Shown here one piece after another: positions 1-3,897 of a stretch of DNA of 64,000 bases; positions within the stretch are counted from its first letter, which is position 1, and the number at the start of each line of letters is the position of its first letter. Both the position numbers and the translations under genes were made by a program. This stretch comes from Candidatus Binatia bacterium (GTDB taxonomy: Bacteria; Desulfobacterota; Binatia; HRBIN30): positions 1-64,000 of the forward strand of contig JBBRSP010000032.1 of NCBI GenBank assembly GCA_038245295.1. The letters are read 5' to 3'. Under the pieces are notes generated by a model, which had not been told where the DNA came from, ran no database searches, and saw only the letters and a list, made by a program, of their open reading frames with translations.

Positions 1-91
1 CGATGGACCCCCGCCGCATGTCGCCGACTTCTTCGATCCGCCTGAGCACCTCTGCGCGTTTGCCTTCCAGCTCCTCGATCGTCCTTGCCAT
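1..91 (-). CDS. Partial (5' end only) DUF6788-like small IS-associated protein
   Basis: Minus-strand ATG at 91 with AGGAGG upstream; reads MARTIEELEGKRAEVLRRIEEVGDMRRGSI and runs off the window. 'GDMRRGSI' is typical of DUF6788 IS accessory proteins. Confidence 0.55.
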   Translation of the reverse strand, partial: MARTIEELEGKRAEVLRRIEEVGDMRRGSI

Positions 92-183
92 CCCCGCCAC
101 CTCCTCTACCAGCCTTATGTACTGGTAGAATCGTGACACAAGCAAGCCCTCGTTGCAATTACCCACATCTACGACGCACACCC
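1..183 (-). mobile_element. Probable left end of an insertion sequence (ISKra4-like)
   Basis: Minus strand begins GGGTGTGCGTCGTAGATGTGGGTAA at 183, directly upstream of the DUF6788-like ORF; resembles GGGTG(C/T)GCG-type IS termini. Transposase and other end lie outside the window. Confidence 0.4.
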
Positions 184-248
184 GAAATGACCCCACTACA
201 CAATTCAGTTTGACTCGACGAAGGATCAGCTGTATCGACAGCCGCAGA

Positions 249-332
249 ATGATTTCACGCGCTTGGTTCTATTCCTTTACCTCTTTCTTTCCTTGGCCCG
301 CGAGGGCGGCGGAGAGTTGCGTGAACGAATAG
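249..332 (+). CDS. Aromatic-amino-acid attenuator leader peptide (27 aa)
   Basis: ATG 249 to TAG 332 = MISRAWFYSFTSFFPWPARAAESCVNE; 2 Trp, 4 Phe, 1 Tyr within 11 codons; lies before a terminator and DAHP synthase. Confidence 0.85.
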   Translation: MISRAWFYSFTSFFPWPARAAESCVNE

Positions 333-355
333 AAGCAAGCGTCAGCGCACATTCC

Positions 356-394
356 AAAGCCCCGAGGGACGATCTCTCGGGGCTTTTTTGTTTT
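356..394 (+). terminator. Intrinsic terminator of the attenuator
   Basis: AAAGCCCCGAG...CTCGGGGCTTT stem followed by TTTGTTTT, between leader and DAHP synthase start. Confidence 0.9.
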
Positions 395-412
395 CGGCGA
401 TGGAGGAGAGTC

Positions 413-1480
413 ATGGAAGAGTTGTTGGATGATCGAAATGTGACCGAGTCGGTGCCCCTGGCGTCACCTCGTCAGGTCAAAGCGAGTCTGCCCGTTTCTC
501 CCACTGCGGCGGCAAACGTCCGCCGCGGGCGCGGCGCGATTCGCGATGTCCTGCACGGTCGCGACGAGCAACGTCTGGTGGTTGTGGTTGGCCCGTGCTC
601 GATTCACGATCGACGCGCCGCCTTTGAATATGCCACTCGGCTGAAGCACCTCGCCGATCAAGTTTCCGACTCCCTCGTTGTCATCATGCGCACCTACTTC
701 GAAAAGCCGCGCACCACGGTCGGCTGGAAGGGGTTGATCAACGACCCGCATCTCGACGGCTCGTGCGACATCGAGGCCGGCTTACGGTTGGCGCGCGAAG
801 TTCTCCTTGAGATCAACGACATGGGGATGCCGTGTGCCGGTGAGATGCTCGATCCGATCACGCCGCAGTATGTCGGCGACTTGATCAGTTGGGCCGCCAT
901 CGGCGCGCGGACGACGGAGAGCCAGACGCACCGTGAGCTTGCCAGCGGGTTGTCGATGCCGGTGGGTTTCAAAAATGGCACCGATGGCGGACTCGATGTT
1001 GCCCTCAACGCGATGATCTCGTCGCGCCAACCGCATAGTTTCCTGGGCATCAACGTCGAGGGTGGTGCGGCCCTGGTGCGCACGTCCGGCAATCCGGACC
1101 GTCATATCGTCCTGCGCGGCGGCAGCCGCGGAACCAACTTCGACGCGGCGAGTGTTCTCCACGCCACCGCCATGGTGCGAGGCGAGGGAATCGCGCGGCC
1201 GATCATGGTCGACTGCTCGCATGACAACTCGGCCAAAGACCACACGCGCCAGGTTGGCGTCGCCCGCATCGTCGGCGAGCAGTTCTGCAGCGGCGAGCAA
1301 TCGATCATGGGTTTGCTGATCGAGAGCCATCTCGAGGCGGGCAAGCAGACATGGAAGCCGGATCAACCGGGTCGCTACGGCGTGTCGATCACCGACGCGT
1401 GTATCGGCTGGGACGACACCGAAGCCTTGCTGCTCGAGCTGGCGGCCGGGGTGGGCGCCCGACCGCGTCGCGCCGCGTGA
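413..1480 (+). CDS. aroG: DAHP synthase, class I-alpha (AroF/G/H type)
   Basis: GPCSIHD, YFEKPRTTVGWKG, IGARTTESQTHRE, GFKNGTDG, VDCSH, SITDAC motifs; start placed at ATG 413 after GGAGG. Confidence 0.95.
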   Translation: MEELLDDRNVTESVPLASPRQVKASLPVSPTAAANVRRGRGAIRDVLHGRDEQRLVVVVGPCSIHDRRAAFEYATRLKHLADQVSDSLVVIMRTYFEKPRTTVGWKGLINDPHLDGSCDIEAGLRLAREVLLEINDMGMPCAGEMLDPITPQYVGDLISWAAIGARTTESQTHRELASGLSMPVGFKNGTDGGLDVALNAMISSRQPHSFLGINVEGGAALVRTSGNPDRHIVLRGGSRGTNFDAASVLHATAMVRGEGIARPIMVDCSHDNSAKDHTRQVGVARIVGEQFCSGEQSIMGLLIESHLEAGKQTWKPDQPGRYGVSITDACIGWDDTEALLLELAAGVGARPRRAA

Positions 1481-1576
1481 TCGTGCGAAGGCCGGGCTCG
1501 AGCCGTCTGACTTGACCGTGCGTCTACCCCAGGCATATCTCAGCATGCTTCGGCACGCCGGGCAGAGGGAGAGTGA

Positions 1577-2446
1577 GTGATGTCTGGACGACTTCAGGGA
1601 AAAGTGGCGGTGATCACCGGCGGTGCCAGCGGCATCGGGCGCGCTACCGTGTTGCGATTCCTCGACGAGGGGGCTCGCGTGGTGATCGCGGATTTCAACG
1701 CGGAGACCGGCAAGCTTGTCATGGAGGAATGCGCCAAGGCGGGCCATGCCGCCAACGTGAAGTTCATCCGAACCGACGTCGCGAAGGAATCGGATGTCGA
1801 GGCTGCCGTTAATCTTGCCGTCAGCGCCTTCGGACGTCTCGACTGCATGTTCAACAATGCCGGGGTCGCCGGCGCCTTCGGACCCATCACGCATCAGTCC
1901 GTCGAAGATTGGGACTACACATTCGGCGTCCTCGTGCGCGGCGTCTTCCTCGGCATCAAACATGCGGCGCGGGTGATGAAGGCACAGGGGCAGGGCGGTT
2001 CGATCATCAACACGGCGTCGATCGCCGGGCTCTCGGGCGGCGATGGACCGCAGGCCTACTGCGCTTCCAAAGCGGCGGTGATCAACCTGTCGCGCGCCTG
2101 TGCGGTCGAGCTTGGACCGGACCTGATCCGTGTCAATGCCATCTGCCCGGGTGGCATTCTCACTCCACTCATCCACCGCGGCAGCCCGGATGCTTTGTCG
2201 CCGATCCTGCAGCAGCTGCAACCGTGGCCGGAAGCCGGTTTGCCCGAGCATATCGCCGGTGTGGCACTGTTCCTGGCAACCGAGGACGCGCGGTTCGTTA
2301 CCGGAGCCCACATTGTTGCCGATGGTGGACTCACGGCGCAGGGCGGTAACGCGATACGCGGCCTTGGCCAGGGGCAGATGTCTCTCGCGGCGGGTGTTGA
2401 TCGCGGCACGACGGGTGAGGAGATGTCGATCCGCCTCATCGAATGA
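1577..2446 (+). CDS. Short-chain dehydrogenase/reductase
   Basis: TGGASGIG, NNAG, YxxxK (YCASK). Confidence 0.93.
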   Translation: MMSGRLQGKVAVITGGASGIGRATVLRFLDEGARVVIADFNAETGKLVMEECAKAGHAANVKFIRTDVAKESDVEAAVNLAVSAFGRLDCMFNNAGVAGAFGPITHQSVEDWDYTFGVLVRGVFLGIKHAARVMKAQGQGGSIINTASIAGLSGGDGPQAYCASKAAVINLSRACAVELGPDLIRVNAICPGGILTPLIHRGSPDALSPILQQLQPWPEAGLPEHIAGVALFLATEDARFVTGAHIVADGGLTAQGGNAIRGLGQGQMSLAAGVDRGTTGEEMSIRLIE

Positions 2447-2481
2447 CGGACCTCCTTGGAAAGAGATGAGCACTGAGCTTT

Positions 2482-2624
2482 TCCTCTCCCAGCTCGAATG
2501 GCGTCGTCGCGGCTGGGAGAGGGTCGGGGTGAGGGCGTGTTGATGGATTCAGGCCGGAATAGCTGCGCGCCCTCACCCCGACCCTCTCCCACAAATCGAA
2601 GTTCCACTCCGGGTGGGAGAGGGA
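2482..2624. repeat. Inverted pair of REP-like palindromes
   Basis: GGGAGAGGGTCGGGGTGAGGGC and its reverse complement GCCCTCACCCCGACCCTCTCCC, each with its own CCTCTCCC...GGGAGAGG hairpin. Confidence 0.8.
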
Positions 2625-2670
2625 GTGGTCGGCATCCAGTGTCCGGAGACGACCCGTGGGCGGAGACCGA

Positions 2671-3897
2671 ATGATTGCCGAACCTAACACCTGGCCCGGC
2701 GTCGACACCTCGCGAGTCCCTTTCTGGGTCTACACCGATCCCGAGGTGTACCGTCGTGAACAGGAGGCCATCTTCCGGGGGCCGTTCTGGTCGTATGTCG
2801 GTCTGGCGGCTGAGATCCCCAAGCCGGGCGACTTCAAGCGCACCAGCATCGGGGATGCCTCTGTCGTGCTGGTGCGCGATAAGGCAGGCACGTTACGCGT
2901 CGTTGCCAACCGGTGTGCGCATCGCGGCGTTGCCTTCTGCATGCAGCAACACGGCAACACGCGCGACTTCACGTGCCCGTATCATCAATGGACGTACGAT
3001 CTCACCGGCAAGCTCATTGGTGTGCCGCTGCGCAAAGGGCTCAAAGGGCAGGGCGGCATGCCCGACGACTTCCGGACCGACGAGCACAACCTGCAGCAGC
3101 TGCGGGTCTGCGAGCGCCATGGTGTCATCTTTGCCTCGTTCGACGCGCAAGCGCCGCCCTTTGAAGACTACCTGGGCGCGACGATGTTGGCTTACTTCGA
3201 TCGCGTCTTCGATGGCCGCGAGCTGCGTCTGCTCGGGTACATGCGTCAGCGTATCGACAGCAACTGGAAGTTGATGTTCGAGAACATCAAGGATCCGTAT
3301 CACGCCAGCCTGCTGCATGTGTTCCTGGTGACCTTCGGTCTTTTCCGCGCCGATCAACCGTCGGAGGTCCGCATGGACGAAAGCGGTCGGCATGCGGTGC
3401 TGGTGTCGCGGCGCGGTGAACAGAAGCCCTCGACCGACACCGGCGAGATGCGTTCCTTCCTTCCCGACTTCAAATTGCAGGATACGCGGCTGTTGGCGCC
3501 GGTGAAGGAGTTCGCCGGTGATGCCACGGTCGTCATGCAGACATTGTGGCCGAACCTCATCGTGCAGCAACAATCCAACACTCTGGCGACGCGACAGATC
3601 GTCACCTGCGGACCAGGGGCGTTCGAGCTCCATTGGACCTTCTTCGGATATGCGGATGACAGTGACGAGAGGACGCAGTTGCGTCTGCGTCAGGCCAACC
3701 TCATGGGGCCGGCTGGGTTCGTGTCGGTTGACGACAGCGAGATGATGCAGATCTCGCAATCGGGCGTAGCCGGCGCGCCGAGCGCCAACGCCGTTCTCGA
3801 ACTGGGCGGACGCGATCGCGAGGACACGCCGCATATGATCACCGAGACGGCGATCCGCGGCTTCTATCAATACTATCGCCGGGTGATGGGACTGTGA
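2671..3897 (+). CDS. Rieske ring-hydroxylating oxygenase alpha subunit (salicylate hydroxylase NagG-like)
   Basis: CAHRG...CPYHQW Rieske site; NWKLMFENIKDPYHASLLH mononuclear Fe site; NLMGPAGFVSVDD. Confidence 0.9.
   Translation: MIAEPNTWPGVDTSRVPFWVYTDPEVYRREQEAIFRGPFWSYVGLAAEIPKPGDFKRTSIGDASVVLVRDKAGTLRVVANRCAHRGVAFCMQQHGNTRDFTCPYHQWTYDLTGKLIGVPLRKGLKGQGGMPDDFRTDEHNLQQLRVCERHGVIFASFDAQAPPFEDYLGATMLAYFDRVFDGRELRLLGYMRQRIDSNWKLMFENIKDPYHASLLHVFLVTFGLFRADQPSEVRMDESGRHAVLVSRRGEQKPSTDTGEMRSFLPDFKLQDTRLLAPVKEFAGDATVVMQTLWPNLIVQQQSNTLATRQIVTCGPGAFELHWTFFGYADDSDERTQLRLRQANLMGPAGFVSVDDSEMMQISQSGVAGAPSANAVLELGGRDREDTPHMITETAIRGFYQYYRRVMGL

What the first reader, a model, noticed from the sequence alone, without database searches (positions are those of the whole stretch)
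249..412. Leader-peptide attenuator apparently sensing all three aromatic amino acids
Seen: a 27-aa uORF (below the ORF track's apparent size cutoff) with a WFYSFTSFFPW core. Bases 260-274, covering the Trp-Phe-Tyr codons, are complementary (one mismatch) to 327-341 around the leader stop. CCTTGG at 291 can pair with CCGAGG in the terminator's 5' arm. A strong terminator precedes the DAHP synthase RBS. Established: trpL/pheL-type ribosome-stalling attenuation usually reads one amino acid. Inference: this leader integrates Trp, Phe and Tyr charging at the first shikimate step.
Basis: partly seen in the sequence, partly recalled or inferred. Interest (0 to 1): 0.72.

Follow-up and report, generated by a model that had tools for sequence, protein, structure and literature searches.

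The report
Aromatic leader-peptide attenuator before DAHP synthase
A tiny upstream gene packed with Phe, Tyr and Trp codons, followed by a switchable transcription stop signal, most likely turns on the first enzyme of aromatic amino-acid synthesis when those amino acids run short; it is a real, conserved example of a textbook kind of switch.

Summary
Window 249-332 encodes a 27-aa uORF (MISRAWFYSFTSFFPWPARAAESCVNE), 260-274 pairs with 327-341 (14 Watson-Crick pairs, one mismatch), and a strong terminator (356-386 plus T-tract) precedes a type I-alpha DAHP synthase gene (413-1480).

The element is conserved. A covariance model built here finds it once per genome in 15 of 52 genomes of the same order, and in 5 of 80 named loci. 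In every locus I inspected it lies just upstream of a DAHP synthase gene. All 20 aligned leaders contain Phe and Tyr codons and 19 contain Trp.

It is CCGGGGC in the leader's 3' half pairing with GCCCYG of the terminator's 5' arm (117 of 120 cells paired, one covarying pair). The window uses a shifted register, 297-307 with 359-368.

By position, Phe and Tyr codons are the sensing codons. The conserved Trp codon sits in a stem 8-10 nt from the antiterminator strand, so sensing of all three amino acids is unproven.

The closest known case is the Corynebacterium glutamicum aroR-aroF attenuator. Earlier notes of this scan report similar leaders on other DNA. Verdict: new member of a known kind, moderate interest.

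The parts
210..238 (+). Putative promoter: -35 TTGACT (210-215), 17-nt spacer, -10 TATCGA (233-238). The -10 ends 10 nt before the leader ATG, which implies a very short or absent 5' UTR and no Shine-Dalgarno sequence for the uORF.
   Evidence: TTGAC at 17 nt from a TAnnnn-like hexamer occurs in 17 of 20 family members, TTGCC in 2 and none in 1. The -10 end lies 6-13 nt from the start codon in 18 of 19. The tool's stricter consensus scan found no promoter in 1-1700. The start site is inferred, not measured.
249..332 (+). Leader uORF, 27 codons plus TAG: MISRAWFYSFTSFFPWPARAAESCVNE (W6 F7 Y8 F10 F13 F14 W16).
   Evidence: Homologous uORFs are present in 20 aligned leaders, with 4-9 aromatic codons in frame against 0-4 in each other frame. 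Both synonymous codons are used: TTT 37 and TTC 33, TAC 22 and TAT 9.
259..342 (+). Long anti-antiterminator hairpin (regions 1:2). The outer stem is 259-274 with 327-342; it covers codons W6-F10 on the 5' side and the stop codon on the 3' side. The inner hairpin is 287-299 with 304-316.
   Evidence: MFE; the region 257-344 folds at -43.9 kcal/mol and the inner hairpin at -17.5. Equivalent nested hairpins with different sequences appear in relatives. The apical stem is 87.5% paired in alignment A1.
297..307 (+). Region 2, the antiterminator 5' strand (CCCGCGAGGGC). It pairs with 359-368.
   Evidence: This pairing forms in the fold of transcript 245-371 when a ribosome is masked at codons 5-11. 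The duplex is -17.2 kcal/mol. The homologous family pairing CCGGGGC:GCCCYG is 90.2% paired in A1 and 117 of 120 core cells pair in 20 sequences.
356..394 (+). Intrinsic terminator: stem-loop 356-386 (regions 3 and 4) and T-tract 384-394.
   Evidence: The terminator helix is 94.2% paired in A1, with 5 pairs changed on both sides.
402..1480 (+). Shine-Dalgarno GGAGGAG (402-408) and the regulated gene, a type I-alpha DAHP synthase (ATG 413 to TGA 1480, 355 aa).
   Evidence: PF00793, E 3.4e-85. TIGR00034 aroFGH, 481 bits against a cut-off of 173. Isozyme specificity cannot be assigned: AroG equivalog 439 against 568, AroH subfamily 428 against 463.

Best explanation
This is a classical ribosome-mediated (leader-peptide) transcription attenuator controlling a monocistronic type I-alpha DAHP synthase gene.

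Proposed mechanism:
1. Transcription starts a few bases before the uORF.
2. With enough charged aromatic tRNAs, or with no translation at all, the long hairpin 259-342 forms. It sequesters region 2 (297-307). The terminator 356-386 then forms and transcription stops before the gene.
3. When a ribosome stalls at aromatic codons in the 5' arm of that hairpin, region 2 is freed. It pairs with the terminator's 5' arm (359-368), the terminator cannot form, and RNA polymerase reads into the gene.

What is sensed: by position, Phe and Tyr codons are the conserved sensing codons across the family. In this window an extra Trp codon (W6, next to F7 and Y8) sits in the outer stem, so Trp may be sensed too. 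The conserved Trp codon (W16) is part of stem region 1 and lies too close to region 2 for its role to be judged.

Shown: the sequence anatomy, its conservation, and the mutually exclusive pairings. Inferred: translation of the uORF, the start site, and the response to starvation.
For: Anatomy: uORF, long hairpin, terminator, Shine-Dalgarno sequence and gene are all present.

Conservation:
- All 10 relatives with a DAHP synthase at least 60% identical carry an aromatic uORF plus terminator. None of the 5 loci at 55-57% identity do.
- Model R1 gives one strong hit (73-136 bits) per genome in 15 of 52 genomes of the order. This count includes the window's own genome and one genome flagged unpublished.
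- R1 gives strong hits in 5 of 80 named loci, in 1 class-level relative (54 bits), and in 1 of the 80 listed loci (of 120 or more matches) from a metagenome pattern scan.
- Every strong hit I inspected lies just upstream of a DAHP synthase gene.

Alternative pairing:
- The 2:3 helix is 90.2% paired against 54-62% when slid by one column.
- In 20 sequences the covarying pair reads GC 8, AU 6, GU 4, with 2 unpaired (the window and L116).
- In the window, the shifted register 297-307:359-368 is the fold chosen when a ribosome is masked at codons 5-11. It does not form with no ribosome or with a ribosome at codons 14-28.
- It lowers the energy by 3.3-7.2 kcal/mol relative to leaving region 3 single-stranded.

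Coding signal: aromatic codons are enriched only in the leader frame, and both synonymous Phe and Tyr codons are used.

Precedent: the C. glutamicum aroF leader carries Phe-Tyr-Phe and is induced under Phe limitation (PMC11802643 passages; PMC4046766 passages).
Against: - No expression data exist. No RNA run holds this stretch, so translation, premature termination and the start site are unmeasured.
- At equilibrium the terminator persists for every ribosome position, 28 of 28. The switch must therefore be kinetic, as in known attenuators, and I could not simulate co-transcriptional folding.
- In the family register the window's antiterminator fails at 2 of 7 pairs (G.G and A.C). Only a shifted register with a bulge rescues it.
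- W6, F7 and Y8 lie upstream of the zone where a stalled ribosome would itself cover region 1. Their effect depends on the inner hairpin (-17.5 kcal/mol) giving way.
- The uORF has no Shine-Dalgarno sequence, and the tool's promoter scan found nothing.
- The truncated-transcript simulation was noisy in the relatives: region 3 often paired upstream even without a ribosome.
Confidence: 0.82

Rival explanations
1. This is a true three-input attenuator. Shortage of any one of Trp, Phe or Tyr causes stalling that gives readthrough, so one leader integrates all three end products.
For: 19 of 20 leaders contain at least one Trp codon. The three that lack Trp in stem region 1 are L016, L056 and L051, and two of them (L056, L051) carry a Trp codon elsewhere. 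In the window W6-F7-Y8 are consecutive codons in the outer stem. A ribosome masked at any of them gives the antiterminator fold, which is 3.3-5.3 kcal/mol better than leaving region 3 single-stranded. With a ribosome front edge at A+9, the conserved Trp falls in the effective zone in 13 of 20 leaders.
Against: With a front edge of A+11 to A+15, the conserved Trp codon lies where the ribosome occludes region 2 in 17 of 20 leaders, and Trp is in the effective zone in 0-2 of 20. The TGG is part of the conserved stem CC(C/U)UGG, so RNA structure alone could keep it. The genome also has a second DAHP synthase (type I-beta, contig C10) with no leader, so this isozyme need not answer to all three. 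In C. glutamicum the Tyr codon in the leader did not make Tyr a signal (PMC11802643 passage).
Confidence: 0.33
2. The leader works as a nascent-peptide arrest sequence, like TnaC. The conserved peptide motif (F.YFT(F)PWW.PG) stalls the ribosome in response to a free aromatic amino acid.
For: Conservation extends to non-aromatic residues (T, P, G) around the aromatic core.
Against: The conserved P-W and P-G residues coincide with the RNA stems CCCUGG and CCGGGG, which explains them without any peptide function. The N- and C-terminal parts of the peptide vary freely. An arrest triggered by the free amino acid would induce a biosynthetic gene when the product is abundant, which is the wrong sign. 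Nothing was tested.
Confidence: 0.04
3. This is an RNA-only or protein-binding switch, such as a riboswitch or a TRAP-like or T-box-like element, and the open frame is incidental.
For: The RNA is strongly structured (z = -4.87). The uORF lacks a Shine-Dalgarno sequence.
Against: No Rfam family reaches its threshold. The only related hit is Phe_leader at 23 bits against a gathering score of 55. The aromatic-rich frame stays open in 20 of 20 sequences despite many substitutions and length changes, with enrichment only in that frame. The leader start is the first ATG or GTG after the promoter in 19 of 20, and in L007 an in-frame GTG lies 3 nt upstream. Unrelated leaders with the same codon bias precede other DAHP synthase genes.
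Confidence: 0.06
4. This is an unregulated small gene or sRNA with its own terminator, and the DAHP synthase gene is transcribed from a separate promoter.
For: The terminator is strong (-23.7 kcal/mol) and persists in all equilibrium folds.
Against: Only about 18 nt separate the T-tract from the gene's start codon, and they hold just the Shine-Dalgarno sequence. That leaves no room for a promoter. The element is always directly upstream of a DAHP synthase gene. The conserved 2:3 alternative pairing has no role in a plain terminator.
Confidence: 0.04

Closest known systems
Corynebacterium glutamicum aroR leader peptide / aroF (DAHP synthase) attenuator (Mentz et al. 2013, PMC4046766, passages read; Neshat et al. 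2014 as summarised in PMC11802643, passages read; original paper not seen)
   Same: A short leader peptide with mixed aromatic codons (Phe-Tyr-Phe) lies upstream of a DAHP synthase gene. It works by ribosome-stalling transcription attenuation. The same organism translates a leader peptide (ilvBNC) without a ribosome-binding site (title of a reference listed in PMC4046766).
   Different: The present leader is longer and carries 4-9 aromatic codons, usually including Trp. It belongs to an RNA family with its own conserved stems (CCCUGG / CCGGGGC / GCCCYG / CYCRGGGC). In C. glutamicum only Phe limitation was reported to induce; here nothing has been measured.
E. coli pheL-pheA and trpL-trpE attenuators (Rfam RF01859 Phe_leader, RF00513 Trp_leader)
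   Same: It has the four-region architecture (1:2, 2:3, 3:4), with regulatory codons in region 1 and an intrinsic terminator before an aromatic-pathway gene.
   Different: It is not a member of these families by sequence and structure: Phe_leader scores 23 bits against a gathering score of 55. The regulated gene is the common first step, not a branch enzyme. The codons are mixed rather than a run of one amino acid, and the uORF has no Shine-Dalgarno sequence.
Multivalent attenuators of E. coli (thr leader: Thr and Ile; ilvGMEDA leader: Ile, Leu, Val).
   Same: One leader peptide carries codons for several end products of a shared pathway.
   Different: The pathway and the RNA are different. 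For the present element multivalency is only inferred from codon content.
Polycysteine leaderless short-ORF attenuators of mycobacteria (bioRxiv 10.1101/834739; listing and start of abstract only)
   Same: A regulatory uORF apparently begins at or next to the transcript's 5' end, with no Shine-Dalgarno sequence.
   Different: It senses a different amino acid. The mode of action there was not read. The 5' end here is inferred from promoter spacing only.

Membership tests
Classical leader-peptide (ribosome-mediated) transcription attenuator | A short uORF with a cluster of codons for the pathway's end products | tested here: met
   The uORF has 27 codons, 7 of them aromatic (W2 F4 Y1), upstream of DAHP synthase. 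It is conserved in 20 aligned leaders.
Classical leader-peptide (ribosome-mediated) transcription attenuator | An intrinsic terminator between the uORF and the structural gene | tested here: met
   Stem 356-386 has 14 bp and is followed by a T-tract, at -23.7 kcal/mol. The helix is 94.2% paired with 5 compensatory pairs.
Classical leader-peptide (ribosome-mediated) transcription attenuator | An antiterminator (2:3) that is mutually exclusive with the terminator | tested here: met
   In the family, CCGGGGC:GCCCYG is 90.2% paired and 117 of 120 core cells pair, with GC/AU/GU covariation. The window uses the shifted register 297-307:359-368 at -17.2 kcal/mol. In the family register the window fails at 2 of 7 pairs.
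Classical leader-peptide (ribosome-mediated) transcription attenuator | An anti-antiterminator (1:2) whose 5' strand overlaps the regulatory codons | tested here: met
   Hairpin 259-342 has codons 5-16 on its 5' arm. The apical stem is 87.5% paired.
Classical leader-peptide (ribosome-mediated) transcription attenuator | The uORF is translated, and readthrough rises when the cognate tRNA is uncharged | not testable with these tools
   No RNA run holds the stretch. This needs reporter, Term-seq or Ribo-seq experiments.
Rfam RF01859 Phe_leader | Covariance-model score at or above the gathering score (55 bits) | tested here: not met
   23 bits, E 0.99.
aroR-aroF type attenuator (C. glutamicum) | A leader with Phe/Tyr codons directly upstream of a DAHP synthase gene | tested here: met
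   The comparison is by description only.
aroR-aroF type attenuator (C. glutamicum) | Sequence or structure homology of the leader RNA to aroR | not tested
TIGR00034 aroFGH (3-deoxy-7-phosphoheptulonate synthase, type I-alpha), for the regulated gene | Score above the curated cut-off | tested here: met
   481.2 bits against 173.2. PF00793, E 3.4e-85.

The most novel reading that the evidence does not exclude
One nearly leaderless 27-codon leader acts as a three-input sensor of Trp, Phe and Tyr charging. W6-F7-Y8 open the outer stem. The conserved Trp codon inside stem region 1 gives Trp a distinct, position-dependent weight: either readthrough, or a veto by occluding the antiterminator. That would make this a graded, hierarchical integrator of all three aromatic end products at the first shikimate step, in an RNA family shared between type I-alpha and type I-beta DAHP synthase genes.
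Probability: 0.3. Interest if true: 0.55.

Novelty: new member of a known kind. Interest (0 to 1): 0.4.

Why it matters
It documents ribosome-sensing control of the committed step of aromatic amino-acid synthesis in an uncultured lineage; the nearest named records are MAGs labelled Candidatus Binatia, delta proteobacterium and Myxococcales.

It defines an RNA family that no Rfam model detects. The alignment and covariance model built here could be used to annotate that family.

It shows that aromatic leaders before DAHP synthase genes are much more widespread than the single published Corynebacterium case suggests. The family also offers a natural test of how codon position relative to the antiterminator sets which amino acid is actually sensed.

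Tried and rejected
- Equilibrium folding with a ribosome mask at each of 28 codons never removed the terminator. I rejected it as a test because attenuators are kinetic, and replaced it with folds of the transcript cut before region 4.
- The same truncated-fold simulation on 18 relatives was too noisy to use. Region 3 paired with something upstream even without a ribosome in most, and one terminator was mis-called (L003).
- An Rfam scan of 1-3000 at E up to 10 found no family near its threshold for the leader.
- Expression data: no RNA holder is listed for window 150-1500.
- The genome-wide scan for other aromatic uORFs with terminators in this genome found nothing else convincing. I opened only the C3 hit, which lies inside a longer ORF; the other eight were judged from hairpin energy alone.
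- The phylum-wide R1 search mostly returned bare terminators at 26-33 bits. I inspected 10 of the 20 non-self hits and left 10 uninspected.
- A metagenome pattern scan keyed on the terminator listed 80 loci of 120 or more matches. Only 1 was a strong family member (L207), plus 1 related leader (L180).
- Literature: Naville & Gautheret 2010 (PMC2965389) and Seliverstov et al. 2005 (PMC1262725) contain no DAHP synthase attenuator (term searches). Full-text searches returned only the C. glutamicum case. Subscription papers (Neshat 2014, Vitreschak 2004, Lopatovskaya 2010) were not readable and may contain predictions I could not see.
- A sequence look-up in this scan's earlier notes found no look-alike stretch.

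Full report
**What is in the sequence**

Window 249-332 (+) is an ATG-initiated 27-codon frame, MISRAWFYSFTSFFPWPARAAESCVNE, ending in TAG. Seven of its codons are aromatic: W6, F7, Y8, F10, F13, F14 and W16.

Bases 260-274 pair with 327-341 through 14 Watson-Crick pairs and one G.G mismatch (-19.3 kcal/mol). This is the outer stem of the minimum-free-energy fold of 240-412 (-76.4 kcal/mol; z = -4.87; 0 of 200 dinucleotide shuffles fold as well). Inside it sits a second hairpin, 287-299 with 304-316 (-17.5 kcal/mol).

A 14-bp stem-loop at 356-386 followed by TTTTTTGTTTT is a strong intrinsic terminator (-23.7 kcal/mol). GGAGGAG at 402-408 and ATG 413 open a 355-aa type I-alpha DAHP synthase: PF00793 at E 3.4e-85, and TIGR00034 at 481 bits against a cut-off of 173.

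**Is it more than chance?**

I scanned the whole 6.6-Mb assembly for ORF tails with at least 5 aromatic residues in 8, followed within 170 nt by a hairpin and a T-run. This gave 10 hits. Only this one has a hairpin below -20 kcal/mol. I opened one other, on contig C3, and it lies inside a longer ORF. Conservation, below, is the stronger argument.

**Conservation**

- Among 41 related genomes, 16 have a homologue of this DAHP synthase.
- All 10 loci with at least 60% identity (L002-L010, L016) carry an aromatic-rich uORF plus terminator in the same place. The 5 loci with 55-57% identity (L011-L015) do not.
- I aligned 16 leaders (A1) and built covariance model R1.
- R1 finds one strong match (73-136 bits) per genome in 15 of 52 genomes of the order. 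This count includes the window's genome and G050, which is flagged unpublished and was not otherwise used. Three further matches are weak.
- Among 80 named loci encoding the closest DAHP synthases in GTDB species representatives, R1 matches 5 strongly: two MAGs labelled Candidatus Binatia, one delta proteobacterium, one Myxococcales and one Thermostichus. It matches 3 weakly at full length. None of the 30 loci labelled Nitrospir* match.
- A phylum-wide sample of 151 genomes gave only one further clear member, in the same class (54 bits).
- A metagenome pattern scan added one more, L207.
- Every strong hit I inspected lies directly upstream of a DAHP synthase gene.

**The leader is coding**

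- The 20 aligned leaders are 19-28 codons long and share a core of roughly F.YFT(F)PWW.PG.
- They hold 4-9 aromatic codons in frame, against 0-4 in each of the other two frames.
- Both synonymous codons are used for Phe (TTT 37, TTC 33) and Tyr (TAC 22, TAT 9).
- The leader start is the first ATG or GTG after the promoter in 19 of 20.
- A TTGAC -35 box lies 17 nt from a TAnnnn-like -10 in 17 of 20 leaders.
- The -10 ends 6-13 nt before the start codon in 18 of 19, and in the window there is no Shine-Dalgarno sequence.
- I infer a leaderless or nearly leaderless uORF. The start site itself is unmeasured, and the tool's stricter promoter scan found nothing.

**The switch**

In relatives, the 5' half of the leader (the aromatic codons) and the 3' half (through the stop codon) form one long, imperfect hairpin. 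Its outer stem differs in sequence between genomes but keeps pairing. Examples are UUCUAUUC:GAAUAGAA in the window, UAUUCGUUC:GAACGAAUA in L009 and UACUCGUUUACG:CGUAGACGAGUA in L004. Its apical stem is CC(C/U)UGG:CC(G/A)GGG, 87.5% paired.

The 3' strand of that apical stem, CCGGGGC, is also complementary to GCCC(C/U)G in the terminator's 5' arm. On A1 this 2:3 helix is 90.2% paired, against 54.5% and 61.6% when slid by one column. In 20 sequences 117 of 120 core cells pair. One pair covaries: GC 8, AU 6, GU 4, with 2 unpaired, the window and L116. Where region 2 has A, region 3 has U, and in L007, L110, L112 and L207 region 4 has A as well.

The terminator plus apical stem exceed all 500 column shuffles for percent paired and for covariation score. 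This is the four-region logic of a classical attenuator.

**The window's own version**

In the family register the window's region 2 (CGAGGGC) mispairs at two positions. A shifted register, 297-307 with 359-368, gives 9 pairs with a bulge and a 1x1 loop, at -17.2 kcal/mol.

I folded the transcript cut before region 4 (245-371) with a ribosome masked at each codon. This pairing appears for A-site codons 5-11. It is absent with no ribosome and for codons 14-28. It is worth 3.3-7.2 kcal/mol over leaving region 3 single-stranded.

The fold never chooses it, and in relatives it does no better than shuffles: 70.8% paired, with 317 of 500 shuffles as high.

At full length and equilibrium the terminator always wins, 28 of 28 ribosome positions. 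This is expected for a kinetic switch, but it means the mechanism is inferred, not demonstrated.

**Which amino acids are sensed?**

I classed each aromatic codon by whether a ribosome stalled there (front edge at A-site +13 nt) would do one of three things:
- (E) cover region 1 and leave region 2 free;
- (U) sit further upstream;
- (B) occlude region 2 itself.

| Zone | Leaders with Phe | Leaders with Tyr | Leaders with Trp |
|---|---|---|---|
| E | 20 of 20 | 18 of 20 | 2 of 20 |
| B | 3 of 20 | 2 of 20 | 17 of 20 |
| U | 18 of 20 | 10 of 20 | 5 of 20 (includes the window's W6) |

The conserved Trp codon is the UGG of stem region 1, 8-10 nt from region 2. It moves into zone E only if the front edge is at +9 or less (13 of 20).

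Two facts point the other way. 19 of 20 leaders keep at least one Trp codon. Two of the three leaders that lost the stem Trp (L056, L051) have one elsewhere.

So Phe and Tyr sensing is well supported by position. Trp sensing is possible, and more plausible here than in most relatives because W6 adjoins F7 and Y8 in the outer stem, but it is unproven. The genome also has a second DAHP synthase, a type I-beta enzyme with an N-terminal domain on contig C10, which shows no leader. It has no type II enzyme. This isozyme therefore need not answer to all three end products.

**Comparison with what is known**

The closest published case is the C. glutamicum aroF leader (aroR), with Phe-Tyr-Phe. It was predicted from RNA-seq (PMC4046766, passages read). 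It is reported to raise aroF transcription under Phe limitation but not Tyr limitation (PMC11802643, passages read, citing Neshat 2014, which I could not read).

E. coli pheL and trpL share the architecture, but the element is not a member of their Rfam families: Phe_leader scores 23 bits against a gathering score of 55. Leaders that read several amino acids (E. coli thr, ilv) are established knowledge, which I recall but did not check.

Five full-text searches and term look-ups in two comparative papers turned up no description of this family.

This scan's earlier notes list 207 findings that hold the words leader peptide, attenuator, DAHP synthase and aromatic. The eight shown describe leaders before DAHP synthase genes in cyanobacteria, Planctomycetota, Chloroflexota, Actinobacteria and archaea. 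So the scan has found this kind of device before on other DNA. None is a sequence look-alike of this one.

I saw the same breadth myself. Unrelated aromatic leaders with terminators precede DAHP synthase genes in MAGs labelled Latescibacterota (L081), Planctomycetota (L087), Dehalococcoidia (L075, YYYY) and others. They also precede type I-beta genes in L121, L122, L124 and L180.

**Verdict**

This is a real, conserved leader-peptide attenuator of a DAHP synthase gene (confidence about 0.8). It is a new member of a known kind, defines an RNA family not in Rfam, and probably has a leaderless uORF. Interest is moderate (0.4).

Noticed in passing
window 2513-2592: A long, near-perfect G+C-rich inverted repeat (about 25 bp per arm) lies between the short-chain dehydrogenase gene (1577-2446) and an ORF with a Rieske-like CxH...CxxH motif (2656-3897, motif read by eye). 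It gives sub-threshold hits to several miRNA precursor models on both strands (best 35.5 bits against a gathering score of 150).
   Followed up: no
L115 (G048:C199), about 9887-10055 in contig coordinates: In a genome of the same order, a weak R1 hit (34.9 bits) is a different leader. It encodes MSTSRRTYMCCCCTRAW... with four consecutive Cys codons plus a terminator, upstream of an ORF that looks like a sulfate-binding protein (by eye). This is a candidate cysteine-sensing attenuator.
   Followed up: partly
L113 (G038:C4), about 146460-146603 in contig coordinates: A weak R1 hit (29.5 bits) with a terminator lies upstream of an ORF beginning MAKDTVRIFDTTLRDGEQSPG, which looks like 2-isopropylmalate synthase (by eye). 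It may be a leucine leader and was not analysed.
   Followed up: no
L121, L122, L124 and L180: Aromatic-rich uORFs with terminators precede DAHP synthase homologues that are only 22-24% identical to the window's enzyme and look like type I-beta (L121, L122, L124). Examples are MDGRTTYYFFWRFYF..., MNCNSWQSFSFLYYYPYY..., MKKTRWDGFANFFFFFFM... and MIAHTYFGYWFTFTPP.... In L180 the downstream gene was judged type I-beta only from its N-terminus, by eye. L180 scores 45 bits with R1, so a related leader RNA may serve both enzyme types.
   Followed up: partly
G000 contig C10:199470-200660 and C3:318024-318860: The window's genome has two further PF00793 genes. One is a type I-beta DAHP synthase with an N-terminal extension and no evident leader upstream. 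The other is a 278-aa protein like KDO-8-phosphate synthase. No type II DAHP synthase was found, in a genome that is 96.6% complete.
   Followed up: partly
L045 (MAG labelled Candidatus Binatia): This DAHP synthase gene, 64% identical, has no leader. It directly follows another coding region. The leader is therefore not universal even among close relatives: 2 of the 3 Binatia-labelled loci have it.
   Followed up: partly
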